Part shown: in pieces, positions 2,524 to 34,641 of the stretch
How positions within the stretch are numbered: the stretch's first letter is position 1
Layout of the letters: every line of letters starts with the position of its first letter
Assembly: GCA_964358425.1 (NCBI GenBank)
Contig: CAYHON010000002.1
Coordinates: 9,350 to 66,133, forward strand
Origin: an uncultured Candidatus Saccharibacteria bacterium
GTDB lineage: Bacteria; Patescibacteriota; Minisyncoccia; Sungbacterales; HO2-52-23
Length of the DNA stretch: 56,784 nucleotides
Direction of reading: 5' to 3'
Program-made: the position numbers and the translations under genes
The notes under the pieces: model-generated
What the model was told of the DNA's origin: nothing
What the model saw: only the letters and a program-made list of their open reading frames with translations
Database searches by the model: none

Positions 2524-3609
2524 TCACCTATTTATCAATTCAATTACGGTCACCTCCAGGGGCAGTTGCGGGATGGGAGTTTTTTTGAAAATCTGCATAT
2601 TTTGCACGATAACATTGAGACTGCGGGAAAGCTCCTCGGCGGTGAAAGCCGGCAGGTGGGAGACGATGCACTCCATTTCATCCAGCAGGAGCTCGTCGGC
2701 GATAAACTTTTTTAGGTTGGGATCAATTTTCAAAAAAAGCGCGTAGCGGAAATAACGGGTCAGAAACTTGGTGAAGTAGCTTAAATCATAGCCCGCGTCG
2801 GTCAACTCCTGTATCAAAGCCAGGGCCGAGAAAGCGTCTTTACGGGCGATAAAGCCAAACATTTTTTTACCTGTCTCGCGGCGTGGGAGGCCCAATATTT
2901 TTTCCGCCTCCTCGCGGGTGATTTTTTTATCCTCCACCGACATTATCTGCCCCAAAATGCTTTCGGCATCGCGGATGCCCCCTTCGGCGGCGAGCGCAAT
3001 CAAGTGCGCCGCCTCTTTATCCAAAATCACGTTTTCCTTTTTGGCCAGATATTCCAGCCGTCCGACGATTTGGGGCACGGTCGGGCGGCGGAAATCGTAG
3101 TGCTGGGTGCGTGAGACGACGGTCGGCAATACTTTTTCAAGCTCGGTCGTGGCTAAAATAAAGACGACATGCGCCGGGGGCTCTTCCAGGGTTTTAAGCA
3201 GAGCGTTGAAAGCTTCTTTGGTGAGCTGATGGACTTCGTCAATGATATATATTTTGTATTTGCCATCGCCGGGATTGAAGCGCACTCCCGCGCGTAACTC
3301 GCGTATCTCATCTATGCCTCGGTTGGAGGCGGCGTCTATTTCCACCAAGTTCATCCCCTGCCCCCGGTTGAAGCGCTCGCAATTGGCGCAGGCGTTGCAG
3401 GGCTTATTGCGCTCCAGACAATTCAGAGCTTTGGCAATCAGGCGTGCGGTGGTCGTCTTGCCCGTCCCGCGGGGGCCGGAAAACAAATAGGCGTGGGCGA
3501 TTTTGCCCATTTTTAGAGAATTTACAATCGGCGTGATTATATGCTTCTGGCCGACGATTTCGGTGAAATCTTTGGGCCTATACTTTCTATATAAAACCTG
3601 TTCGCTCAT
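2524..3609 (-). CDS. dnaX: DNA polymerase III subunit gamma/tau (short form)
   Basis: AAA+ clamp-loader motifs are present: GPRGTGKTT (Walker A), the Zn module CLERNKPCNACANCERF, IIDEVH (Walker B) and SRTQ (sensor). Confidence 0.9.
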   Translation of the reverse strand: MSEQVLYRKYRPKDFTEIVGQKHIITPIVNSLKMGKIAHAYLFSGPRGTGKTTTARLIAKALNCLERNKPCNACANCERFNRGQGMNLVEIDAASNRGIDEIRELRAGVRFNPGDGKYKIYIIDEVHQLTKEAFNALLKTLEEPPAHVVFILATTELEKVLPTVVSRTQHYDFRRPTVPQIVGRLEYLAKKENVILDKEAAHLIALAAEGGIRDAESILGQIMSVEDKKITREEAEKILGLPRRETGKKMFGFIARKDAFSALALIQELTDAGYDLSYFTKFLTRYFRYALFLKIDPNLKKFIADELLLDEMECIVSHLPAFTAEELSRSLNVIVQNMQIFKKTPIPQLPLEVTVIELINR

Positions 3610-3646
3610 CAGTTTGCGTAGTTATTTTCTCTGGAAACTTTAGCAT

Positions 3647-3669
3647 AAAAAAAAACCTTTTGAAAGGTT
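3647..3669 (-). terminator. Intrinsic-terminator-like hairpin with U tract on the minus strand
   Basis: The minus strand reads AACCUU-UCAA-AAGGUU followed by about 9 U. It lies about 40 nt upstream of the dnaX start, so it is either the end of an upstream RNA or an attenuator. Confidence 0.5.
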
Positions 3670-3724
3670 TGCGCTCGCTATCGCGCTTCGCATAAACACG
3701 ACAGACCCAAACAATAAAATATTA

Positions 3725-3764
3725 GAGGCGGCAATCTGTGAAGAGATTACCGCCTCGGTTTTTT
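3725..3764. terminator. Perfect 13-bp hairpin flanked by U/A tracts (bidirectional terminator-like)
   Basis: GAGGCGGCAATCT-gtgaag-AGATTACCGCCTC. On the + strand it is followed by GGTTTTTT. On the - strand it is followed by TAATATTTTATTGTTT. Confidence 0.55.
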
Positions 3765-3767
3765 GCG

Positions 3768-4020
3768 GAGAGAGAGCTCCGCGTCTCGGACATTTAAGGA
3801 TTGCTGACCCTTCTCCTTCTTCCCGGATCAGGTCCTCACGACCGATAGAGAAGCGACGGGTAACGACGCCTGGGACGGACGACCCTGCAGGAAGACCGCC
3901 TGAGGGCCGGCGCGAGCGTCGGCCTGGGATAGGGGTGCCATGGGAACCTCCATAGAAGCACCGGTGGCGGGAACGAGAGTACTCGTCTTGAGCACTCCCA
4001 GGAACATACTCCATCGACGT
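3768..4020 (+). ncRNA. GC-rich structured RNA with RNase P RNA-like (specificity-domain) motifs on the + strand; class and strand not settled
   Basis: There is no credible CDS here, and the tracked 124-aa ORF is low-complexity and Arg/Gly/Pro rich. The + strand carries, in E. coli M1 RNA order, AGGUCC..AUAGAG..GGGUAACGaCGCCUGGG..ACGACC..UGCA..AGACCGCC..[GGCCGGCG-CGAG-CGUCGGCC hairpin]..GAUAGGGGUGC..AGAAGCACC. CCGCC/GGCGG pairing is possible. I could not find the universal GGAAAGUCC and ACAGAA..CGGCUUA P4 strands. The best promoter and terminator signals are on the - strand. Confidence 0.4.
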
Positions 4021-4026
4021 CTTTTA

Positions 4027-4055
4027 TTTTTATACCTTAGAATTTATTTTGTCAA
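4027..4055 (-). promoter_or_regulatory. Sigma-70-like promoter candidate reading into the GC-rich RNA region
   Basis: Minus strand TTGACA (4055-4050), then a 15-17 nt spacer, then TATAAA/TAAAAA (4034-4027). The surrounding sequence is AT-rich, so a chance match is possible. Confidence 0.35.
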
Positions 4056-4090
4056 ATGGGGTTTTTCCACAGGGGTTCATTGGAAGTAAT

Positions 4091-4242
4091 ACCCCAGCCC
4101 TAATTTTGCGGGGCAATAATTTGGCAAAGCGCTTCGCCCATCAAGGTATGGCCTATCCGGCCACGCTCTTTGCTTATATAAAATAAGCTATTCTTAAAAA
4201 AATTAGTTTAACTCTCTAAAAATCGCAAAATTAGGGCGGGGT
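4091..4242. repeat. About 150-bp element bounded by about 19-bp inverted repeats
   Basis: ACCCCAGCCCTAATTTTGCG (4091-4110) pairs with CGCAAAATTAGGGCGGGGT (4224-4242). The 14-nt core GCCCTAATTTTGCG is perfectly complementary. Inner hairpins include TGGCC-tatcc-GGCCA and GCTTAT-ataaa-ATAAGC. Confidence 0.8.
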
Positions 4243-4297
4243 TACTTTTTGTTAGCCAAATTTTCTGCGCTTGTCAGCTTGAAAATTTGGACAAAAA

Positions 4298-4332
4298 CTA
4301 AAAAAAGAGGCGTCCCGTTCGCGAGACGCCTC
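4298..4332 (-). terminator. Rho-independent terminator
   Basis: The minus strand reads GAGGCGUC-ucgcgaacgg-GACGCCUC followed by UUUUUUUAG. Confidence 0.8.
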
Positions 4333-4388
4333 CAATTCTGTTTTTCCGCCTTCTACTGCTTCGCTACCTTGGCACTGCCGGCTTGGTC

Positions 4389-4499
4389 CTACCCGCTCCT
4401 GACCTGGAGCTTCTTCGGGGTCTCGGGCGCTTCCGCAAGGATGAGCCTCTTCTTGGCGGCACGGGTTCCCTGCACGCCGTAGTAACGTCCAGCTGCCAT
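4389..4499 (-). CDS. Candidate 36-aa basic small protein (or part of a small RNA)
   Basis: My own translation is MAAGRYYGVQGTRAAKKRLILAEAPETPKKLQVRSG*. AAAGGAGGTG lies 8 nt upstream of the ATG. The unit has its own promoter-like element and terminator. It is too short for the ORF track and I recognise no family. Confidence 0.4.
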   Translation of the reverse strand: MAAGRYYGVQGTRAAKKRLILAEAPETPKKLQVRSG

Positions 4500-4539
4500 G
4501 GGTTACACCTCCTTTCGTGGCGGGATAAGATCTTTTTAC

Positions 4540-4568
4540 AGGATAACTGTTCTTTGGGGACAGGTCAA
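4540..4568 (-). promoter_or_regulatory. Sigma-70-like promoter candidate for the mini transcription unit
   Basis: Minus strand TTGACC (4568-4563), a 17-nt spacer, then TATCCT (4545-4540), just downstream of the gtrA-like stop. Confidence 0.45.
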
Positions 4569-4587: not shown

Positions 4588-5190
4588 TTATTTTTTAAAA
4601 ACTATCAATTTATATCCCAAGAAGTTCCAGAACAAAGTTATGGCCGTGGCGGCGACCTTGGCCAAATTGAGCCATGCAGCTTTAGGGAGGCCGTAATGCG
4701 AAGGTATATAAGTAGTGGCCAGGATTATGATGGCGCTATTTATAATCATACCGAGCACCGTTACCACAAGAAACCTCGGCAGATCATGGAAAAAACTTTC
4801 TCGGTCGCGGTCTTTGAAAACCCAAAGCTTGTTCCAGACATAGCTGTTGGAGACGGCTACGAGAAAGCCGGGTATGTTGATGCCTCCCAAGATAAAACCG
4901 GAAGCGACGCCGGATAGCAGGCTTAAAATATTGAGGATGCCGAAATCAATCGTAGTATTTAGCAATCCTACCGCCGCGAAGCGGCTCAATTGCCGGAAGA
5001 TGTTGAATTTTTTCCCCAAAAAATTTCCTATGCCTACGCCGATAATAAAAAGTACCAAGGTTAGCAGGGGCAGGGCAAACAAGATGACCGGCTGTCCTTT
5101 TAAGAATTCCAGATTAACAGCTATAGGGATTAAAAAAACTCCGGTCAGAAAACCCGCCAACGCGCCCACATAATAATCAGTTTTTTGCAT
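4588..5190 (-). CDS. GtrA family membrane protein
   Basis: 200 aa with four predicted TM helices. It has the GtrA-like N-terminal pattern FAAVGLLNTTIDFGILNIL and the C-terminal VWNKLWVFK. Confidence 0.75.
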   Translation of the reverse strand: MQKTDYYVGALAGFLTGVFLIPIAVNLEFLKGQPVILFALPLLTLVLFIIGVGIGNFLGKKFNIFRQLSRFAAVGLLNTTIDFGILNILSLLSGVASGFILGGINIPGFLVAVSNSYVWNKLWVFKDRDRESFFHDLPRFLVVTVLGMIINSAIIILATTYIPSHYGLPKAAWLNLAKVAATAITLFWNFLGYKLIVFKK

Positions 5191-5212: not shown

Positions 5213-7669
5213 TTATGATGCCGGGGTATGCTTGGCCAATATTTCCTGCTCTACCTCCTCGCGCGGGCGGCCGTATTTGGTGCGGGAAATTTCTTTGACC
5301 ACCTCCGCTATTTCTTTGTCGCCCTTGCGGGGAGGATAGGTTTTCATGCTGAAAGGCGGAGAGGTCATGCCTCTGGCCAAAAGTTTAACATAACAATTAA
5401 AGTTGTCTATTTGCAGCAAGTCCTGCTCGTTGAAAACAGGCTTGAATTGCTTGGCCATAAATTCGGCGTCGTCGGTGCCGATGCGGAAAGATATGGTGGA
5501 GCCGACGTTGCCGAAGACCGCTTTTTTAATATCCTCTTTCAGCTGGCCGATGAATTGATGGGTGATAATGAGGTCCAGCCGGTATTTACGCGCTTCCGAC
5601 AAAATGGTCGCAATGGAGTTGGTGGTGACGTTTTGGAACTCGTCTATATACAGATAAAAATCTTTGCGCCTGCTTTCCTCCACATCTACCCGCGAGAGGG
5701 CCGACATCAAAAGCTTGCCGACAATAATAAGACCAATGAGCGAAGAATTCAGATCGCCGAGACGTCCTTTGGATAAATTGACCAGCAATATTTTTTGATT
5801 ATCCATCACCTCGCGGAAATTAAAGGCCGATTTTTCCTGGGCGATGATGGGGCGCATAATTTCGTTGGCAATAAAATTATCAAACTTGGAGGCGATGTAG
5901 GGAACCATATTTTGCAGGCTGGCTTCTCCGCCGGCTTTCTCGGCAATCTGGGTCCAGAAATTTTTGACGACGATATTGGTGGTGCGCGACAGCTTCAGGT
6001 CGCGGAAAGGCTTGTCGGTCAGCACCCTTTCAATTTCCAGAAAAGTATTGCCCGAAGACGGGTCATCCAGCACCAGCATCGTCGCGTTGCGGAAATACTG
6101 CTCAAACATCGGCCCTCCGGCGATGGACATATTGTATAGCTTGTCAAAAATACCCAGAAGCTCGTTGACGATGAAAGTTTTCTGCTCCGGATAATTTTGG
6201 TCGTACTCCAGCATATTGAGTCCCATGGGGCGCGAGGTGTCGCCCGGGTTGAAATAAATCACGTCCTGCACGCGCTCGCGCGGGATAAATTCCAGAATTT
6301 TTTCCACCAAGTCGCCGTGGGGGTCAATGACGCACAGGCCCTTGCCGTTTTCCACATCCTGCACAATGAGGTTTTGCAGAAAGGCGGATTTACCGGTGCC
6401 GGTCTGCCCGATGGTGTAGAGATGTCGCCGCCGGTCTTCATCCAGCTGGCGGATTTCCGATTTTTCTCCGCGGAAAGCGTTGTAGCCGAGAATCAAACCC
6501 TCTGTCGGCAAATTTACCGGGGGCGCTGCCTCGCGGGCTTTGAGCTTGCTGATTTTGGGCGTCTCCAGCGGTACGTTGGGGAAATGAAAAATAGAGGTCA
6601 GCTCTTCGGTATTTAAAATTACTAAGCGGCTTTCGTCAAAGTTGCGGAAAGAAAAATTAAAAAGAATTTTTTTGAGCGAGTTGCAGTCTTGTTTAGCAGT
6701 AGTAAAACTATTGGCGTTGGGATCGGCGAATTGCCCGAAAGCGGCTTCCAGCCCTCCGAGGATGGCTTGGGTCCTCTCTACGCTGGGGGCGGAGGCCACC
6801 AGACGGATATTGGTCTCAAACAGGGCTTTATTGGCCTTGCCGTCCAGAGCTTTGACCATTTCCTCCTGCGCGGGAGAAAGTTTTTTCATCTCCGGCGGTT
6901 TAGCGTCGGTAGAAGTCCCCGCCACTGAAACTACTGTCTGCAAAGTTTTTAAAATAATATCGTCATGGTTTTTTTTACCCTCAAAAATATTTTTAGCCGT
7001 TTTCTTTAACTTATTCTTCCATTTGCTTTTAGCCGGCCGCGCGATTATCTGCAGGCAGGCGCCCTCCCCTTCTTTGGCCAGCTTGGTAAAGACATTGGTC
7101 AGGGATTTAACCGGATCCCCTTCCAGTTTTTGGTAAGTGCGGATGGGAAAATATTGATTTTCTTTGAGGGCCGCGCTGGAGGCGGCGGCGACTCCGTCGG
7201 GATTAAAAATATTATAGTCCCGGCATATTTCCAGCTGGGCGTCCGGAAAGATTCCTTGGATTATTTTTTCCACCGAGAGCATCAGGCGCCGGGGAACGGC
7301 CACGTAGAAACTTATTTCTTCGCCCACAGATGGCACGGTCAGCTCTAGGGCGAAAGACGGCCGGCCGTAGAGGATGGTCTGCCACGGTCTGTCCTTGACC
7401 AATCCGAGCGAGGTATAGAATTGCTCCATTAGGGCAATTTTTTCCCGGATTTGCTGGAGATTCATTTCTTGGGTAGTCTGGGCTTGAGAAAAGCGGATGG
7501 CAAAAAGTCCTAGGCTCAAGGACCGGCTTATCAGCCCGCGGCGGATAAAAGTTTTTTTGATGATTACGACGGCGAGAAAACACCCCACCAGGAAAATAAT
7601 CCCTCCGGTGATGTAAGGACCCATCCCTTCGAATAAATCCCCAAAGGAGAAAAATCCGCTTTCTACCAT
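5213..7669 (-). CDS. Membrane-anchored VirD4/TraD/TraG-like coupling-type ATPase
   Basis: 818 aa with an N-terminal TM segment. Walker A is YTIGQTGTGKSAFL, followed by CVIDPHGDL, and Walker B is FYLYIDEFQN. The tail is ITHQFIGQL...GNVGSTISFRIG, typical of TraD/VirD4-type NTPases. The roughly 400-aa N-terminal domain is not recognised. Confidence 0.65.
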   Translation of the reverse strand: MVESGFFSFGDLFEGMGPYITGGIIFLVGCFLAVVIIKKTFIRRGLISRSLSLGLFAIRFSQAQTTQEMNLQQIREKIALMEQFYTSLGLVKDRPWQTILYGRPSFALELTVPSVGEEISFYVAVPRRLMLSVEKIIQGIFPDAQLEICRDYNIFNPDGVAAASSAALKENQYFPIRTYQKLEGDPVKSLTNVFTKLAKEGEGACLQIIARPAKSKWKNKLKKTAKNIFEGKKNHDDIILKTLQTVVSVAGTSTDAKPPEMKKLSPAQEEMVKALDGKANKALFETNIRLVASAPSVERTQAILGGLEAAFGQFADPNANSFTTAKQDCNSLKKILFNFSFRNFDESRLVILNTEELTSIFHFPNVPLETPKISKLKAREAAPPVNLPTEGLILGYNAFRGEKSEIRQLDEDRRRHLYTIGQTGTGKSAFLQNLIVQDVENGKGLCVIDPHGDLVEKILEFIPRERVQDVIYFNPGDTSRPMGLNMLEYDQNYPEQKTFIVNELLGIFDKLYNMSIAGGPMFEQYFRNATMLVLDDPSSGNTFLEIERVLTDKPFRDLKLSRTTNIVVKNFWTQIAEKAGGEASLQNMVPYIASKFDNFIANEIMRPIIAQEKSAFNFREVMDNQKILLVNLSKGRLGDLNSSLIGLIIVGKLLMSALSRVDVEESRRKDFYLYIDEFQNVTTNSIATILSEARKYRLDLIITHQFIGQLKEDIKKAVFGNVGSTISFRIGTDDAEFMAKQFKPVFNEQDLLQIDNFNCYVKLLARGMTSPPFSMKTYPPRKGDKEIAEVVKEISRTKYGRPREEVEQEILAKHTPAS

Positions 7670-29800: not shown

Positions 29801-31333
29801 TCATTCCAAAAGCTTTCTCTGGTGTCTTGATATATCAGTCTCCACTTTTTTTGCTTCTTTGTAATAGGATTCTGACCAAAGAGGCATTTTAGGACGCAGA
29901 CCAATAAGTAAGTCCTTTATAGTGATTATCTGAATTTTAGGAAATTCTTCTTTATGAAATCCATTAAAACTAATTTCAAATTTACCAGAACTTACTGCTT
30001 CTTCCCTCATTGGTCTGGTCGGTTCCTCTAGTGTTAACAGTAGTCCGCCGTCAGCCTTTTCTCGGTCTATATCTCCTTTCAAGGCGGCGATATCTTTTCT
30101 TTGAACTCCCCCGCCTTTTACCTGTACCAAGATTTTTCCATATTCACGGTCTCCATTCTTAATATTTTTTACAATTGTGATAATCCCATCAATTCCTTTA
30201 TCCGCTCCCCGCATATTTTCTTTAGACTTGCTTTGGGCTGGCATGGCGTTTACCAAGTCTAAGGCCCAATATTCAAATTCAAAGGGATCTTTTTTGAATA
30301 ACGATTTAGCACCGGTCAAATCTTTCGGCAGACCATCAACATGAATCTGCATAAACTTGTCAGAAAATTGTTTTTTTAGACGGTGTTTGACTAAATTGAC
30401 AGCTAATGCTGTAATATCAATGCCGACCCAGCGCCTATCTAGTTTTTCAGATACCGCAACAGTAGTTCCGCAGCCACAAAACGGATCTAAAATCCAATCT
30501 CCATTTTTCGAAGAAGCCTCGATAATACGTTCCAGCAATGCTTCTGGTTTTTGTGTTGGGTAACCTAACCTTTCATTTGCATTGCCAGCTATGGTGGGAA
30601 TGTACCAATAATCTGCTATTGGAGTTCCAATAGATTCCTCCTCTTGATCTCTGGATAATCTTTTACCGTCAATAAACGTAGCTTTCTGTTTTTTGCCCTT
30701 ATGTATTTTAATGGTTATATCTGCTAGGGGTTGGTATATGGTATTAAAAGTATAATCCCCCCGCTCGTCTTTTACATAGAAAAAAATTATATCATGCATC
30801 CTCTGAAATGATTTTGATTTAGCAGGCCAGCGTCTATATGTCCAAATAATTTCATTTCTAAAGTTTTGTTTTCCAAAAATCGCATCCATTACTATTTTTA
30901 AATAATGACTCGCGGTCGGGTCGCAATGCAGGTAAATACTGCCTGTATTTTTCAAAACTCTATGCAATTCAATAAGCCGCGTTGTCATCATTGTTAAATA
31001 AGCCAAAACATCGTTGTGGCCTATCATCTTTTCCAGAGCCAGCATGAGATTCGAAATCTGCTCGTTTATTCTTATTTTAGACGGCCTTGCGCCGACCAGC
31101 TGTTCAAAAGTGCTCTGGGCGTCGGCTGTCCAGTGCCAGCTGTCCTCAAACGCCTGAATTTGCGCCTGACTGTCCGCTAAACCCTCCTTAAACAAAACGT
31201 TGTAATTACGATTAGAATTAAATGGCGGGTCTAAATAAATCAAATCAAAATAACCCTCACCGTCAGGTTTGTCCGGAAACTTATCTCGTAAAATATCCAG
31301 GTTGTCCCCAAAATAAAGAGTCCGATTTTGCAT
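29801..31333 (-). CDS. DNA methyltransferase (beta-class N6A/N4C) fused to a C-terminal Mrr-like PD-(D/E)xK nuclease domain
   Basis: Motif IV IYLDPPFNSNRNYN precedes motif I DPFCGCGTTVAV, which is the beta order. The C-terminus GADKGIDGI...ILVQVKGG fits the D...(E/Q)xK restriction-endonuclease core. The start is taken at MQNRTLYFGDN. The gene is AT-richer than the flanking tkt genes. Confidence 0.8.
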   Translation of the reverse strand: MQNRTLYFGDNLDILRDKFPDKPDGEGYFDLIYLDPPFNSNRNYNVLFKEGLADSQAQIQAFEDSWHWTADAQSTFEQLVGARPSKIRINEQISNLMLALEKMIGHNDVLAYLTMMTTRLIELHRVLKNTGSIYLHCDPTASHYLKIVMDAIFGKQNFRNEIIWTYRRWPAKSKSFQRMHDIIFFYVKDERGDYTFNTIYQPLADITIKIHKGKKQKATFIDGKRLSRDQEEESIGTPIADYWYIPTIAGNANERLGYPTQKPEALLERIIEASSKNGDWILDPFCGCGTTVAVSEKLDRRWVGIDITALAVNLVKHRLKKQFSDKFMQIHVDGLPKDLTGAKSLFKKDPFEFEYWALDLVNAMPAQSKSKENMRGADKGIDGIITIVKNIKNGDREYGKILVQVKGGGVQRKDIAALKGDIDREKADGGLLLTLEEPTRPMREEAVSSGKFEISFNGFHKEEFPKIQIITIKDLLIGLRPKMPLWSESYYKEAKKVETDISRHQRKLLE

Positions 31334-31448
31334 ATTTAAATTATAGCCAATTTCGTGGCACAAAACAACATATAGAAGATTTCTATGCTAAGCGGAGGAA
31401 ATTATGCTTTTTGAAACACTCAAAAGACATAATTTCTGAAGCGAAAAT

Positions 31449-32318
31449 TTATTGATGCTCACTCTGTATTTTTCCTCCCAAAGTTCGTAATTCTTCCAAA
31501 AATTTTTTACCCTCTTCCGGTTTTGGCGGTTTGCCGTGCCAGAGGTAATCAAACTCTATTTCGTGTATCCCCTTGCCCGGGATGTTATGTGCGATAATAA
31601 CCGTCGGTTTTTCAAAGATGGCTTTGGCCTGCTCCACGGCGTCCGCAAAATCGCGGATGTTGTTGCCGTCGCAATTCAAAACATGCCACCCGAAAGCTTT
31701 GTATTTATCTTCCAGCGGTTCAAGCGGCATTATATCCTCGGTATATCCGTCTATCTGGATATTGTTGCGGTCAATTACTGCCGTGAGATTGTGCAGTTTG
31801 TTTTTTCCCGCAAACATAGCCGACTCCCAAGTGTTTCCACATTCCTGCTCTGCATCTGACATCAGACAGTAGGTGCGAAAAGTTTTTTTGTCCATTCGGG
31901 CGCCGTAAGCAATTCCGGCGGCCTGTCCCAGACCGGAACCCAGTGGGCCGGAAGTGGTCTCAATCCCCGACAACCTTTCCCGTTCAGGGTGTCCCTGCAA
32001 CCGGCTACCCAGTTTTCTTAAAGTTTTTAATTCCTCTATTGGAAAGTAGCCGGCTTGCGCCATGGACACATAGCGGATGGGAGTGATGTGGCCATTGGAT
32101 AAAATCAGCCGGTCGCGCTCCGGCCAGTCGGGATTTTTGGGGTCGTGATTTAAAATATAAAAATAAAGGGTGGTGAAAATATCCGCCATCCCCAAAGGTC
32201 CGGCGGTGTGACCCGAACCTGCTTCCACCAGCATCTCAATCAAAAGAGTGCGCGCGGTGTTGGCTTTGAGTTCCAGGTCTTTAAGTTTGTCGTCGTGTAG
32301 TTCGGACATTACTTCCAA
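31449..32318 (-). CDS. Transketolase, N-terminal subunit (TPP-binding)
   Basis: Motifs GSGHTAGPLGMADI, LSNGH and GPLGSGLGQAAG...DAEQECGNTWE. Confidence 0.9.
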   Translation of the reverse strand: MEVMSELHDDKLKDLELKANTARTLLIEMLVEAGSGHTAGPLGMADIFTTLYFYILNHDPKNPDWPERDRLILSNGHITPIRYVSMAQAGYFPIEELKTLRKLGSRLQGHPERERLSGIETTSGPLGSGLGQAAGIAYGARMDKKTFRTYCLMSDAEQECGNTWESAMFAGKNKLHNLTAVIDRNNIQIDGYTEDIMPLEPLEDKYKAFGWHVLNCDGNNIRDFADAVEQAKAIFEKPTVIIAHNIPGKGIHEIEFDYLWHGKPPKPEEGKKFLEELRTLGGKIQSEHQ

Positions 32319-32325
32319 AATACCA

Positions 32326-33597
32326 TTATTGCCAAGCTTCTACAACGCGGTTTAAGGCTCTTACATACGCCGCCAGGCGCCAAGATGTATTATATTTTGA
32401 TTTCGTTTCGGCTACTCCCCGGAAGGCTTCGGTCATCTGGGCGTCAATTTTTTCCAGGACTTCCTTTCCGCCCCAATATTTGCCTGATTTGGATTGTATC
32501 CATTCAAAATACGAGCCGACTACTCCCCCGCCGTTGGCCAAGATATCCGGGATTATTTCCACTCCTTTTTTCTCCAATATTTTATCCGCCTCATGGGAGA
32601 CGGGGCCATTGGCCAGCTCCAGAATAACTTTGGCTTTTATTTTATCCGCGTTTTTCTCCGTAATCTGGTTTTCCAGCGCGGCCGGTATCAAAATGTCCAC
32701 GGATAATTCCAGCAGCTCGTCATTGGAAATTTGCTGGCACAAAATACAGGCGTTTTTCTTGTCGCAATCCACCGCGTAACACTTGCCCTGGTCTATCAGG
32801 CCGGTTTTTTCCTTCTCGTCTATGATGCGATTGATGTCTATGCCGTCTGATTCCAGGAGTCCGCCTTTAGAATCGGATATGGCGATGACTTTAAAACCGC
32901 GCTCAAAAAGAAGCTTGGCGATATTGGAGCCCACATTACCGAAGCCCTGCACGGCGACATTTAGGGATGTAGGTTTTAGGTTATAGGTTATGGGGGATTT
33001 TTTTAGATATTCTCGGAGAGTCACGTATCCGCCGAAGCCGGTGGCAACTTCGCGACCCTGCGAACCCCCTTTTTCTATCGGTTTTCCGGTAAATACGGCT
33101 GGCTCCGAGTGACCGACAAGCTTGGAATATTCATCCGCCATCCAGTCCATCATTTGGGCGTTGGAGCCCACATCCGGCGCGGGAACGTCTTTATCCGGTC
33201 CGATATCTTGCCATATTTTTCGGACATAGCCGCGGCAAATCTGCTCAAGCTCTCTTTTACTCAAAGTGTGAGTATCGGCTTGCACGGCTCCCTTCCCTCC
33301 GCCGAAGGGCAGATTGACCACCGAAGTTTTCCAAGTCATTAAGGAGGCCAAAGCTTTTACCTCATCTAAATTAGAATCCGGATGAAAGCGAATACCGCCT
33401 TTATATGGCCCGAGTTTGTCGTTGTGCTGTACCCGCCAGCCGGGAAAATTTTTGGCGGAGCCGTCATCCATTTTGACGGATATTTCAAATTCTAAAACCT
33501 TATCAGGGGTTTCCAGTTTTACCAAAACATCCTTGGAAATACCAGCCAAGGATGCCGCTTCTTTTATAATTTCTTCGGTATTTTCTAGGAAGGACAT
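32326..33597 (-). CDS. gdhA: Glutamate dehydrogenase (Glu/Leu/Phe/Val dehydrogenase family)
   Basis: Motifs KGGIRFHP, the catalytic-Lys region PFGGGKGAV, and the NAD(P) fold VQGFGNVG. Confidence 0.9.
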   Translation of the reverse strand: MSFLENTEEIIKEAASLAGISKDVLVKLETPDKVLEFEISVKMDDGSAKNFPGWRVQHNDKLGPYKGGIRFHPDSNLDEVKALASLMTWKTSVVNLPFGGGKGAVQADTHTLSKRELEQICRGYVRKIWQDIGPDKDVPAPDVGSNAQMMDWMADEYSKLVGHSEPAVFTGKPIEKGGSQGREVATGFGGYVTLREYLKKSPITYNLKPTSLNVAVQGFGNVGSNIAKLLFERGFKVIAISDSKGGLLESDGIDINRIIDEKEKTGLIDQGKCYAVDCDKKNACILCQQISNDELLELSVDILIPAALENQITEKNADKIKAKVILELANGPVSHEADKILEKKGVEIIPDILANGGGVVGSYFEWIQSKSGKYWGGKEVLEKIDAQMTEAFRGVAETKSKYNTSWRLAAYVRALNRVVEAWQ

Positions 33598-33603
33598 TTT
33601 TAA

Positions 33604-33676
33604 GTCATAGTGAGCGGAGCGAAGCTATCTCTAGATTACTTCGTCATCCACCAGCTGGCGGATTTCGCACGATGAC
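33604..33676. repeat. REP-like hairpin, GTCAT..GAGCGAAG family (copy B)
   Basis: GTCATAGTGAGCGGAGCGAAGC-N-TAGATTACTTCGTC...CGCACGATGAC. It shares GGAGCGAAGC..TAGAT(T)ACTTCG with copy A and fills the gdh/pgi spacer. Confidence 0.8.
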
Positions 33677-33678
33677 AT

Positions 33679-34641
33679 TTAGGCTATAAGTTTTTTAAAT
33701 TCTTCCACCATCGGCACCTGCTCCGCCTCCGTGCCGTAAATCAAGGAAAGATAATAAGCGGTCCAATCGGCGAGCTGGAGAGAAGAAAATATTTTATGGA
33801 GCCGATCTTGGCCGGTCAGCTCCATTTCAGTCACTTCCAATCCCCGGTCACGGTATAGTTTGGCCAAAACACTGCTTCTTTTAATATTTTGCGGATGATC
33901 GGACGAATCTTTTAAAATAATAAAATGAAAGGCCCTGGATAATTTTTCAGTGGTATCGGTTGCGTCAAAACCGGTCATCTCGTTGTGATTAAGCTCGGGC
34001 AAGAAATTACAAAAAGCCGGTATTTTGCTAGTCTCGTTTAATTTTATTTTCCAATTATAAGCTATAGCGGCGTTGCGACGGGAGGCGTAGATAACTGGTA
34101 CAAATCCTCGCAGTTTGGCAGATAGCTCCTTGGCCGATTTCTCCACTTCTTCGGAGGATAGGAGCGCGGCCAACTTTTTGGTTTCCGCCAAAGTTTTCTC
34201 ATCCCCCATTATTTTTAAAAGTCCGCGCAGGCTGAAGCCGAGAGCCGAGCGTGGTTGGATGCCGGTATCGGGCATCTGGACATAGGGGATATTATTTTTT
34301 TTGGCTTCTTCAATGAGTTTGCCGCCGATAGCGATAGCAGCTGCGGGTAATTTTTTTTCTAAGGCTATTTTCAGCCCGTCCAGAACTTCTTCGGTGTTGC
34401 CGGAGTAAGAACTGGCGATCACAAAAGCGTTTTGCAGGACGGTTTCCGGAAAAGGCAGGCCGTAATCGGAGTGGACAATTATATCCATATCCGGCTTATA
34501 GGCGGCAAGTAAGTCCGCGGCAAGGTGCGACCCGCCCATGCCAAGCACTATAAAAATTTCTTTGCGCTGGAGCTTGTCCGCGTTTATTATCTCCGGCTCG
34601 TACAGAAACTGCTGGGGAAAATTTTTAATAGCTTCTTCCAT
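33679..34641 (-). CDS. Bifunctional phosphoglucose/phosphomannose isomerase (SIS domain)
   Basis: SIS pattern VLGMGGSHLAADL...ASSYSGNTEE, and the C-terminal ELNHNE motif typical of the PGI/PMI family. Confidence 0.8.
   Translation of the reverse strand: MEEAIKNFPQQFLYEPEIINADKLQRKEIFIVLGMGGSHLAADLLAAYKPDMDIIVHSDYGLPFPETVLQNAFVIASSYSGNTEEVLDGLKIALEKKLPAAAIAIGGKLIEEAKKNNIPYVQMPDTGIQPRSALGFSLRGLLKIMGDEKTLAETKKLAALLSSEEVEKSAKELSAKLRGFVPVIYASRRNAAIAYNWKIKLNETSKIPAFCNFLPELNHNEMTGFDATDTTEKLSRAFHFIILKDSSDHPQNIKRSSVLAKLYRDRGLEVTEMELTGQDRLHKIFSSLQLADWTAYYLSLIYGTEAEQVPMVEEFKKLIA

What the first reader, a model, noticed from the sequence alone, without database searches (positions are those of the whole stretch)
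3640..4060. GC-rich RNA locus upstream of dnaX with conflicting signals: RNase P-like motifs on + but promoter and terminators on -
On the + strand, a run of motifs matches the order and spacing of the E. coli M1 RNA specificity domain as I remember it. The run is AGGUCC..AUAGAG..GGGUAACG(ac)GCCUGGG..ACGACC..UGCA..AGACCGCC, then a P12-like hairpin GGCCGGCG-CGAG-CGUCGGCC, then GAUAGGGGUGC...AGAAGCACC, with CCGCC/GGCGG able to form a P11-like helix.

The universally conserved catalytic-core strands GGAAAGUCC and ACAGAA-N-CGGCUUA are not visible. The GC-rich block is only about 250 nt. It is followed by an AU-rich stretch and then an inverted-repeat element (4091-4242).

On the - strand there is a TTGACA-N15/17-TATAAA/TAAAAA promoter-like site at 4055-4027. 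There are also two terminator-like hairpins (3756-3725 and 3669-3647) just before dnaX.

Three readings are open. It could be a reduced or atypical, possibly interrupted, RNase P RNA. It could be a minus-strand RNA or long structured dnaX leader. It could be overlapping transcripts.
Basis: partly seen in the sequence, partly recalled or inferred. Interest (0 to 1): 0.6.

Follow-up and report, generated by a model that had tools for sequence, protein, structure and literature searches.

The report
Orphan small-RNA-like unit upstream of dnaX
The GC-rich stretch upstream of dnaX is not an RNase P RNA (the real one lies on another contig); it looks like a self-contained minus-strand unit of about 295 bases, with its own promoter and terminator, that has no detectable relative anywhere, so it is at most a lineage-specific small RNA of unknown role.

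Summary
The RNase P reading is refuted. No Rfam family matches 3500-4450 on either strand, even at E<=10. The genome's real RNase P RNA is on contig C13 (144 bits, full length, with GGAAAGUCC and ACAGAAUUCGGCUUA). tmRNA is on contig C5.

The minus-strand reading fits best. A TTGACA promoter (4055-4026) is followed by a 61% GC body of about 260 nt and then a 13-bp terminator hairpin (3756-3725). dnaX has its own extended -10 promoter (TGCTAAAGT, 3645-3637) below a second terminator (3670-3647). The block is therefore a separate unit, not a dnaX leader.

SRP RNA, which often sits upstream of dnaX in other bacteria, is excluded. No SRP RNA, Ffh or FtsY was found in this genome, nor in any of the sampled genomes of its phylum.

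The unit is an orphan:
- no DNA, HMM or covariance-model match in up to 100 related genomes or 21 syntenic loci;
- no protein homologue of its 124-aa frame;
- predicted folding no better than shuffled sequence once the terminator is removed (z -1.4).

The gtrA-dnaX gap is a variable slot across relatives. Verdict: a plausible lineage-specific small RNA, or non-functional filler. Low interest.

The parts
4026..4055 (-). Sigma-70-type promoter-like site: TTGACA (4055-4050), 17-18 nt spacer, TAAAAA/AAAAAT (4032-4026). The predicted transcription start is near A4020.
   Evidence: 10 of 12 matches; 5 sites found in 1.3 kb against 1.3 expected from shuffles. Sequence read, coordinates. The start site is inferred, not shown.
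3760..4020 (-). GC-rich body of the putative RNA, about 260 nt. It has no Shine-Dalgarno-preceded ORF and no detectable homologue.
   Evidence: GC is 61.4%, in the top 0.4% of 250-nt windows. No Rfam match. The fold z-score is -1.40 on the minus strand and +0.19 on the plus strand. There is no homologue.
3974..4000 (-). Predicted 11-bp hairpin UGGGAGUGCUC-AAGAC-GAGUACUCUCG. It has three G-U pairs, which would be A-C mismatches on the + strand.
   Evidence: Minimum-free-energy structure. Coordinates. This is a prediction only, with no covariation to support it.
3804..3831 (-). Hairpin CUGAUCC-[GGGAAGAAGGAGAA]-GGGUCAG. Its unpaired 14-nt purine-rich loop (3811-3824) is Shine-Dalgarno-like.
   Evidence: Present in both the minimum-free-energy and centroid structures. 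Coordinates. Exact 19-mer matches to this loop in metagenomes were all chance hits in coding DNA.
3765..3782 (-). Small hairpin GCGGAG-CUCUCU-CUCCGC with a CU-rich loop.
   Evidence: Coordinates.
3709..3756 (-). Intrinsic-terminator-like hairpin (3756-3725, 13 bp) followed by the U-rich tail UAAUAUUUUAUUGUUU. This is the proposed 3' end of the unit. On the + strand the same hairpin is followed by GGUUUUUUG.
   Evidence: Sequence. This hairpin accounts for most of the apparent fold stability: z is -4.1 with it and -1.4 without it.
3647..3670 (-). Second, weak terminator hairpin AAACCUUUCAAAAGGUUU followed by U9. It is the positional equivalent of the terminator that precedes the dnaX promoter in relatives.
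   Evidence: Sequence. Comparison of dnaX-proximal regions in 12 relatives. The scan did not list it because it has only 2 GC pairs.
3637..3645 (-). dnaX's own extended -10 promoter, TGCTAAAGT. It is not part of the unit and marks the unit's lower boundary.
   Evidence: In one search a TGnTAnnnT motif (mostly TG-C-TAnnnT) sits in the last 45 nt before dnaX in ours and in L015, L016, L017, L018, L020, L025, L095 and L096 (L097 has a looser variant). In most of these it lies 6-9 nt before the ATG, so the mRNA would be leaderless or nearly so. Promoter function is inferred.
2524..3609 (-). dnaX (DNA polymerase III gamma/tau, 361 aa), the downstream neighbour.
   Evidence: Pfam DNA_pol3_delta2 at 1.2e-46, plus the DNAX lid domain and gamma domain III.

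Best explanation
Window 4055-3709, minus strand, is an independent small transcription unit. A near-consensus sigma-70 promoter would start transcription near 4020. The transcript is a GC-rich RNA of about 295 nt that ends at the 13-bp hairpin plus U-rich tail at 3756-3709.

The RNA is most likely non-coding. No reading frame has a ribosome-binding site, and none has a homologue. It belongs to none of the housekeeping RNA classes. It is specific to this genus or species.

It sits in a gap between gtrA and dnaX whose content differs in every relative examined. That gap also holds a separate 36-codon mini-gene and a repeated inverted-repeat element.

If the RNA is functional, the likeliest mode of action is base pairing as a trans-acting small RNA. 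Candidate pairing sites are its exposed 14-nt purine-rich loop (GGGAAGAAGGAGAA, 3824-3811) and its CU-rich stretches.

What is shown: the signals, the strand bias, the boundaries, and the absence of relatives. What is inferred: that the unit is transcribed, where the transcript ends, and any function.
For: - Promoter at 4055-4026 (10 of 12) and terminator at 3756-3725, both on the minus strand.
- The minus strand folds to -103.8 kcal/mol and the plus strand to -94.7. Predicted helices contain G-U pairs.
- A second terminator and dnaX's own TGCTAAAGT promoter lie between the unit and dnaX. That terminator-promoter arrangement recurs upstream of dnaX in relatives.
- The unit does not look protein-coding. 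The 124-aa frame runs through both terminators, has no Shine-Dalgarno sequence, and found only itself plus two low-complexity giant proteins among 1.84 billion representative proteins. It has no Pfam hit. The neighbouring 36-codon unit, by contrast, has AAAGGAGGTG 8 nt before its ATG.
- It is not a known RNA. No Rfam match at E<=10. RNase P RNA and tmRNA are elsewhere in the genome.
Against: - No conservation was found. DNA search gave 0 of 35 genomes in the family, while the genome's RNase P RNA found 34 of 35 with the same search.
- Two single-sequence covariance models found nothing in 100 relatives or in 21 syntenic loci.
- There is no second copy in the genome.
- The closest available relative (dnaX 79% identical) has unrelated sequence in the same slot.
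- Without the terminator, the fold is no better than shuffled sequence: z -1.40, with 15 of 200 shuffles folding at least as well.
- High GC is not a mark of RNA genes in this genome. RNase P RNA is 49.6% GC and tmRNA is 46.8%.
- The terminator's U tract is interrupted.
Confidence: 0.45

Rival explanations
1. The block is non-functional filler. It would be a fragment of GC-rich DNA, either foreign or the decayed remnant of a lost gene, lying in a hypervariable insertion slot. The promoter-like and terminator-like sites would then be fortuitous or left over from former neighbours. Any transcript would be noise.
For: - The block is an orphan at every level searched.
- The fold z-score is only -1.4.
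- The gtrA-dnaX gap holds something different in each relative: a 97-nt gap in L098 and L099, a 274-aa ORF in L097 and L016, two GC-rich mini-ORF units in L095, and a hairpin element in L017 and L020.
- Next to the block is an inverted-repeat element with an 83% identical copy at C6:30003-30206.
- The GC content is far from the genome mean, as expected for acquired DNA.
Against: - A perfect TTGACA -35 box with correct spacing sits exactly at the upper edge of the block, and a strong hairpin sits at its lower edge on the same strand.
- No donor was found in phage or plasmid collections.
- There is no significant match to the 274-aa ORF that fills the slot in relatives (best E 1.3).
Confidence: 0.3
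2. The unit is an orphan small-protein gene. Its mRNA would have a very short leader of about 6 nt before the ATG at 4014 (124 aa), or would use the ATG at 4007 (59 aa, ending at 3828). It would resemble the small GC-rich ORF units seen in the same slot in this genome and in its closest relative.
For: - The neighbouring unit (4298-4568) and both units in L095 are small ORFs with their own promoter and terminator.
- dnaX in many relatives appears leaderless, so translation without a Shine-Dalgarno sequence is plausible in this lineage.
- In the 59-aa frame the codon-position GC is 0.63, 0.53 and 0.68, which weakly resembles a coding pattern.
Against: - There is no Shine-Dalgarno sequence, whereas the neighbouring small ORFs have strong ones.
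- The predicted start site is not at the ATG.
- The 124-aa frame reads through two terminators and its GC3 is the lowest of the three positions (0.53).
- There are no homologues and no paralogues in the genome.
- The codon-position signal comes from only about 82 codons, roughly 2 standard errors.
Confidence: 0.13
3. The block is a long structured 5' leader of dnaX. Transcription would start at 4020 and read conditionally through the hairpins at 3756-3725 and 3670-3647 into dnaX.
For: It is on the same strand as dnaX and directly upstream of it. Two successive terminator-like hairpins could act as attenuators. The U tract of the first one is interrupted.
Against: - dnaX has its own extended -10 promoter below both hairpins, and that arrangement recurs upstream of dnaX in relatives that lack this block.
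- Relatives have gaps as short as 97 nt.
- No riboswitch, T-box or leader family matches.
- No alternative anti-terminator pairing was identified.
Confidence: 0.07
4. The block is a housekeeping RNA in disguise: a reduced RNase P RNA on the + strand, or a very divergent SRP RNA or 6S RNA on the minus strand.
For: From my own knowledge, the SRP RNA gene (ffs) lies directly upstream of dnaX in many bacteria. No SRP RNA or 6S RNA was found anywhere else in the genome.
Against: - The true rnpB is at C13:7806-8277 and carries both universal motifs.
- No RNase P, SRP or 6S model matches here at E<=10.
- The SRP protein partners appear to be absent. There is no Ffh M domain in the genome or in 40 relatives. 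Hits to the SRP54-type GTPase domain are at P-loop level only in 121 genomes of the phylum. tblastn with E. coli Ffh finds nothing in this genome or in 5 complete genomes of the phylum. No SRP RNA was found in 121 genomes. The SecY control was found in 31 of 31 genomes.
- A housekeeping RNA would be conserved across the family, as rnpB is in 34 of 35 genomes. This block is found in 0 of 35.
Confidence: 0.02

Closest known systems
Generic bacterial trans-acting small RNA genes: orphan, promoter-to-intrinsic-terminator units of 50-400 nt in intergenic regions
   Same: It has its own sigma-70-type promoter and a Rho-independent-type terminator on the same strand. It is about 295 nt long, lies between genes, has no ribosome-binding site, and carries exposed single-stranded purine-rich and CU-rich segments that could pair with targets.
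   Different: No expression, target or chaperone is known. It is longer and more GC-rich than most small RNAs. No conservation was found, even within the family. Its predicted structure is not more stable than shuffled sequence.
Bacterial RNase P RNA class A (Rfam RF00010; E. coli M1 RNA)
   Different: There is no covariance-model match. The universal GGAAAGUCC and ACAGAA-N-CGGCUUA motifs are missing. The better-supported strand is the opposite one. The genome has a complete RNase P RNA elsewhere.
SRP RNA (ffs; Rfam RF00169 and RF01854), which often lies upstream of dnaX
   Same: It occupies the position directly upstream of dnaX, on the same strand, with its own promoter and terminator. Its size is near that of large (Bacillus-type) SRP RNA.
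   Different: There is no model match and no helix-8 GNAR loop or conserved internal-loop sequence. Ffh, FtsY and SRP RNA were not found in this genome or in any sampled genome of its phylum. The block is not conserved in relatives.
The GC-rich mini transcription units in the same gtrA-dnaX slot: window 4298-4568 (36 codons), and L095 300-650 and 650-1065 (50 and 76 codons)
   Same: They share the slot and the architecture: consensus promoter, GC-rich body and strong terminator. All are lineage-specific.
   Different: Those units have strong Shine-Dalgarno sequences and clear small ORFs. The focal unit has neither. No sequence similarity exists among them.

Membership tests
Bacterial RNase P RNA class A (RF00010) | Match to the covariance model at or above the gathering score (100 bits) | tested here: not met
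   No Rfam match in 3500-4450 on either strand, even at E<=10. The only genome hit is C13:7806-8277 at 144.3 bits.
Bacterial RNase P RNA class A (RF00010) | Universally conserved core strands GGAAAGUCC (CR-I) and ACAGAA-N-CGGCUUA (CR-V) | tested here: not met
   Both are absent from 3600-4100. Both are present in the C13 gene, at positions 45 and 442-456.
Bacterial RNase P RNA class A (RF00010) | Conserved across related genomes as an essential single-copy gene | tested here: not met
   The focal block was found in 0 of 35 family genomes. The C13 rnpB was found in 34 of 35 with the same search.
SRP RNA (RF00169 / RF01854) | Covariance-model match, including the helix 8 motif | tested here: not met
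   No hit in the window or in the genome. RF00169 was found in 0 of 121 genomes of the phylum.
SRP RNA (RF00169 / RF01854) | The protein partner Ffh (M domain) and the receptor FtsY are encoded in the genome | tested here: not met
   PF02978 has no candidates in the genome and was found in 0 of 41 genomes. The only PF00448 hit is the APS-kinase P-loop. No DTAGR or TKxDG frames exist. tblastn with E. coli Ffh gives a best E of 0.15.
6S RNA (RF00013) | Covariance-model match, or a long hairpin with a central open-promoter-like bubble | tested here: not met
   No hit in the genome at E<=10. The predicted fold is multi-branched, not a single long hairpin.
tmRNA (RF00023) | Covariance-model match | tested here: not met
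   The tmRNA is at C5:18377-18737 at 110 bits. There is none here.
Independent small RNA gene (generic kind) | Own promoter and intrinsic terminator on one strand, outside ORFs | tested here: met
   Promoter at 4055-4026 and terminator at 3756-3725, both on the minus strand. These are consensus matches only.
Independent small RNA gene (generic kind) | A discrete transcript is detected | not testable with these tools
Independent small RNA gene (generic kind) | Conservation or covariation in relatives | tested here: not met
   No homologue was found by BLAST, nhmmer or covariance model. The closest dnaX relative available is only 79% identical, so comparison within the genus was impossible.
Structured non-coding RNA (generic kind) | Fold more stable than dinucleotide shuffles | tested here: inconclusive
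   z is -4.1 with the terminator included and -1.40 without it. The plus strand gives -1.19 and +0.19.

The most novel reading that the evidence does not exclude
The unit encodes a previously undescribed structured regulatory RNA that has taken over the ancestral ffs (SRP RNA) slot upstream of dnaX. It would do so in a bacterial phylum in which no SRP RNA, Ffh or FtsY was detectable. The variable small units seen in this slot across Sungbacteria would then be fast-evolving descendants or replacements of that RNA gene.
Probability: 0.04. Interest if true: 0.6.

Novelty: new member of a known kind. Interest (0 to 1): 0.2.

Why it matters
The locus itself matters little. At best it adds one unconserved candidate small RNA to a CPR (Sungbacteria-like) genome, and it cannot be studied further without expression data or genomes of the same genus.

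The useful results are three:
- The tempting RNase P and SRP RNA annotations are ruled out.
- dnaX is shown to have its own promoter.
- The gtrA-dnaX gap is shown to be a hypervariable slot that collects small units.

The side observation may be more interesting than the finding. No SRP component (Ffh, FtsY or SRP RNA) was detectable in this genome or in any of about 120 sampled genomes of its phylum. It needs an independent check.

Tried and rejected
**Known RNA families**
- Rfam on the whole window at gathering thresholds found only tRNA at 2058-2130.
- Rfam on 3500-4450 at E<=10 gave only noise hits outside the block.
- RNase P, SRP (small and large), tmRNA and 6S were searched in the whole genome.

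**Homologue hunting, all negative**
- BLAST in 60 relatives and in the whole family.
- blastn and nhmmer against the genome itself.
- nhmmer --max against 94 loci, including 80 dnaX loci.
- The closest dnaX relatives were fetched by exact-protein look-up: L095 to L099. blastn and tblastx against them found nothing.
- phmmer of the 124-aa frame against 1.84 billion proteins.
- A 19-mer from the purine loop scanned in metagenome contigs gave 54 hits, all chance matches in coding DNA. The same scan in viral contigs gave 0.
- Distant blastn against phage and plasmid collections.
- Two single-sequence covariance models (R1 of 88 nt, R2 of 175 nt) over 100 relatives and 21 syntenic loci.

**Specific ideas tested and rejected**
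- A remnant of the 274-aa ORF that fills the slot in L097 and L016: best tblastn E 1.3, rejected.
- A member of the genome's multi-copy hairpin repeat family: the profile finds no copy in the window.
- Similarity to a C19 region suggested by tblastx: not confirmed at the DNA level.
- GC-richness as a sign of an RNA gene: rejected, because rnpB and tmRNA have near-average GC.

**Not possible**
- An exact look-up of the window's own DnaX returned nothing.

Full report
**Setting.** The window is G000:C2:9350-66133 of an 864-kb, 83-contig genome that is 99% complete by marker genes. Its closest public relatives are labelled Candidatus Sungbacteria/Sungiibacteriota, in the Parcubacteria group of the CPR. 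On the minus strand the local gene order is:
- a VirD4-like ATPase (5213-7669);
- gtrA (4588-5190);
- a 980-nt gap;
- dnaX (2524-3609), confirmed by Pfam.

The finding lies in that gap.

**Observation.** The universal RNase P core strings are absent. The minus-strand promoter-like site (TTGACA at 4055-4050, spacer 17-18, A/T-rich -10 ending at 4026; 10 of 12) and the hairpin at 3756-3725 (13 bp) are both found by the consensus scan. The second hairpin (3670-3647, followed by U9) is real but weak, with 2 GC pairs. The block is 61.4% GC against a genome mean of 44.8%, which places it in the top 0.4% of 250-nt windows.

**RNase P is excluded.**
- Rfam finds only a tRNA in the whole window at gathering thresholds.
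- It finds nothing in 3500-4450 on either strand at E<=10, apart from noise hits outside the block.
- The genome has a complete class A RNase P RNA at C13:7806-8277 (144.3 bits, model positions 1-367).
- That gene carries GGAAAGUCC at position 45 and ACAGAAUUCGGCUUA at 442-456, and it shares no similarity with the focal block.

tmRNA is at C5:18377-18737.

**Which strand, and where the unit ends.**
- With the terminator included, the minus strand folds with z = -4.1 and the plus strand with z = -1.2.
- Most of that difference comes from the terminator hairpin. For 4022-3762 alone, the minus strand gives -103.8 kcal/mol (z -1.40) and the plus strand gives -94.7 kcal/mol (z +0.19).
- The strand bias therefore favours the minus strand, helped by G-U pairs such as those in the 4000-3974 hairpin. 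Thermodynamics do not show an unusually structured RNA.

Below the first terminator lie a second hairpin plus U9 (3670-3647) and then TGCTAAAGT (3645-3637), an extended -10 motif. A similar terminator followed by a TGnTAnnnT motif directly precedes dnaX in L095, L016, L015 and L017 (L097 has a looser variant), and the motif alone precedes dnaX in L018, L020, L025 and L096. In most of these it sits only 6-9 nt before the ATG, so dnaX there would be leaderless or nearly so. dnaX thus has its own promoter, and the focal block is a separate upstream unit rather than its leader. Transcription itself is inferred.

**Coding or not.** The only long frame (124 aa, 4014-3640) runs through both terminators, has no ribosome-binding site and has no Pfam hit. 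Among 1.84 billion representative proteins it found only itself and two low-complexity giants. Its GC3 is the lowest of the three codon positions. A 59-aa frame (4007-3828) shows a weak coding-like GC pattern, but it has no Shine-Dalgarno sequence. The neighbouring 36-codon unit (4298-4568) and the two units in the closest relative L095 do have strong Shine-Dalgarno sequences. A non-coding RNA is therefore more likely, but a small orphan protein is not excluded.

**SRP RNA or 6S RNA?** From general knowledge, the SRP RNA gene ffs sits directly upstream of dnaX in many bacteria, so this was the obvious alternative. It fails on every count:
- No SRP RNA model matches here or anywhere in the genome, and no 6S model matches.
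- The protein partners were not found. The Ffh M domain has no candidates in the genome and was found in 0 of 41 genomes of the order.
- The only hit to the SRP54-type GTPase domain is the APS-kinase P-loop of an ATP-sulfurylase fusion.
- No frame in the genome holds DTAGR or TKxDG, apart from DTAGR in an L31-like ORF (my reading of the sequence shown).

At phylum scale:
- 121 genomes gave only P-loop-level hits of 26 bits or less to PF00448.
- None of the 121 gave a hit to RF00169.
- Five complete single-contig genomes gave no match to Ffh.
- The same tool finds SecY in 31 of 31 relatives and finds all SRP parts in the control genomes.

**Conservation.** None was found.
- DNA search gave 0 of 35 family genomes and 0 of 25 further genomes of the order. 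As a control, the genome's own rnpB found 34 of 35 family genomes with the same search.
- There is no second copy in the genome.
- nhmmer --max over 94 loci gave no match.
- Covariance models built from the sequence and its predicted fold found only the sequence itself among 100 relatives and 21 syntenic loci.
- A 19-mer from the purine loop hit 54 metagenome contigs, all of them chance matches in coding DNA. It hit no viral contig.
- Phage and plasmid collections gave nothing.

The nearest dnaX in 5.8 billion proteins is only 79% identical. No genus-level relative exists for a covariation test.

**The slot is variable.** The order VirD4-like, gtrA, dnaX is conserved, but the gap between gtrA and dnaX differs in each relative:
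- 97 nt in L098 and L099;
- about 250 nt in L096;
- a 274-aa ORF in L097 and L016;
- a hairpin element with an A(G/A)CCAAGCA(A) bulge in L017 and L020;
- two GC-rich mini-ORF units in L095.

In this genome the gap holds three things: the 36-codon unit, an inverted-repeat element with an 83% identical second copy beside a tRNA-like sequence (my reading, not checked with a tRNA finder) on C6, and the focal unit. None of these contents is similar to another.

**Verdict.** The best reading is an orphan, independently transcribed minus-strand unit of about 295 nt, probably non-coding (confidence 0.45). If it is functional, it most plausibly acts by base pairing through its exposed purine-rich loop (3824-3811) or its CU-rich segments. 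That mechanism is pure inference. The rivals are:
- non-functional GC-rich filler in an insertion-prone slot (0.30);
- an orphan small protein (0.13);
- a dnaX leader (0.07);
- a disguised housekeeping RNA (0.02).

Interest is low. The RNase P idea is refuted, and what remains cannot be shown to be functional with the data at hand.

Noticed in passing
whole genome G000; also 40 relatives of the order and about 120 genomes of the phylum: No part of the signal recognition particle pathway was detectable.
- The Ffh M domain (PF02978) was found in 0 of 41 genomes.
- The SRP54-type GTPase domain (PF00448, found in Ffh and FtsY) gave only P-loop-level hits of 26 bits or less in 121 genomes.
- SRP RNA (RF00169) was found in 0 of 121 genomes.
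- tblastn with E. coli Ffh was negative in G000 and in 5 complete single-contig genomes.
- The SecY control was found in 31 of 31 genomes.

I found no paper in the held library that states this. It needs an independent check against the original annotations..
   Followed up: partly
G000 outside the window, e.g. C13:19239-19509(-), C25:1170-1441(-), C8:216-399(+), C12:3892-4084(+), and on C28, C37, C9, C45, C7, C16 (three copies): A multi-copy structured repeat of about 150-230 nt has at least 25 full or partial copies in this 864-kb genome, many of them at contig ends. Its core is CACUCCGUAAAAGCUUGGCUUCUC-[hairpin]-GAGACCAAGCAAGCCAAGCUUUUAAGGGUU, flanked by GC hairpins. It matches no Rfam family and has no copy in this window..
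   Followed up: partly
L017:1960-2110 and L020:2150-2260 (relatives, just upstream of dnaX): Two Sungbacteria relatives carry an extended hairpin in the gtrA-dnaX slot. It has a conserved 8-nt 3' bulge, A(G/A)CCAAGC(A). The motif resembles the core of the G000 repeat family, but that family's profile does not hit it at E<=1e-3..
   Followed up: partly
window 4089-4305: The inverted-repeat element next to the focal unit (arms CCCAGCCCTAATTTTGC / GCAAAATTAGGGCGGGG) has an 83% identical second copy at C6:30003-30206, beside a sequence I read as a tRNA gene (not checked with a tRNA finder). The repeated stretch also includes the hairpin that follows the arms. It behaves like a small mobile or repeated element. 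The promoter of the focal unit lies outside it..
   Followed up: partly
window 3637-3645 and the last 45 nt before dnaX in L015, L016, L017, L018, L020, L025, L096, L097: dnaX in this clade is preceded by an extended -10 motif (TGnTAnnnT). In most relatives the motif lies only 6-9 nt before the start codon, which implies leaderless or near-leaderless dnaX mRNAs. This genome and L095 instead have a leader of about 20-30 nt without a clear Shine-Dalgarno sequence..
   Followed up: partly
L095:300-1065 (closest relative, dnaX 79% identical) and window 4298-4568: The same slot holds self-contained GC-rich mini-genes, each with a consensus promoter, a strong Shine-Dalgarno sequence, a small ORF and a terminator. 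The ORFs are 50 and 76 codons in L095 and 36 codons in the window. The first L095 ORF and the window ORF both begin MA(A)G(T)R but are otherwise dissimilar..
   Followed up: no
G000:C13:7806-8277: The genome's RNase P RNA is 472 nt long against a 367-position model, so it carries sizeable insertions. One example is an AU-rich stretch around positions 60-100..
   Followed up: no
G000:C3, about 30,800-34,000 (locus L014:1207-3183, minus strand): A single long ORF fuses a PUA-like domain, ATP sulfurylase and APS kinase, with a fragment of the pyruvate-kinase barrel at its N-terminus. Sulfate activation is an unusual capacity for an 864-kb CPR genome..
   Followed up: no
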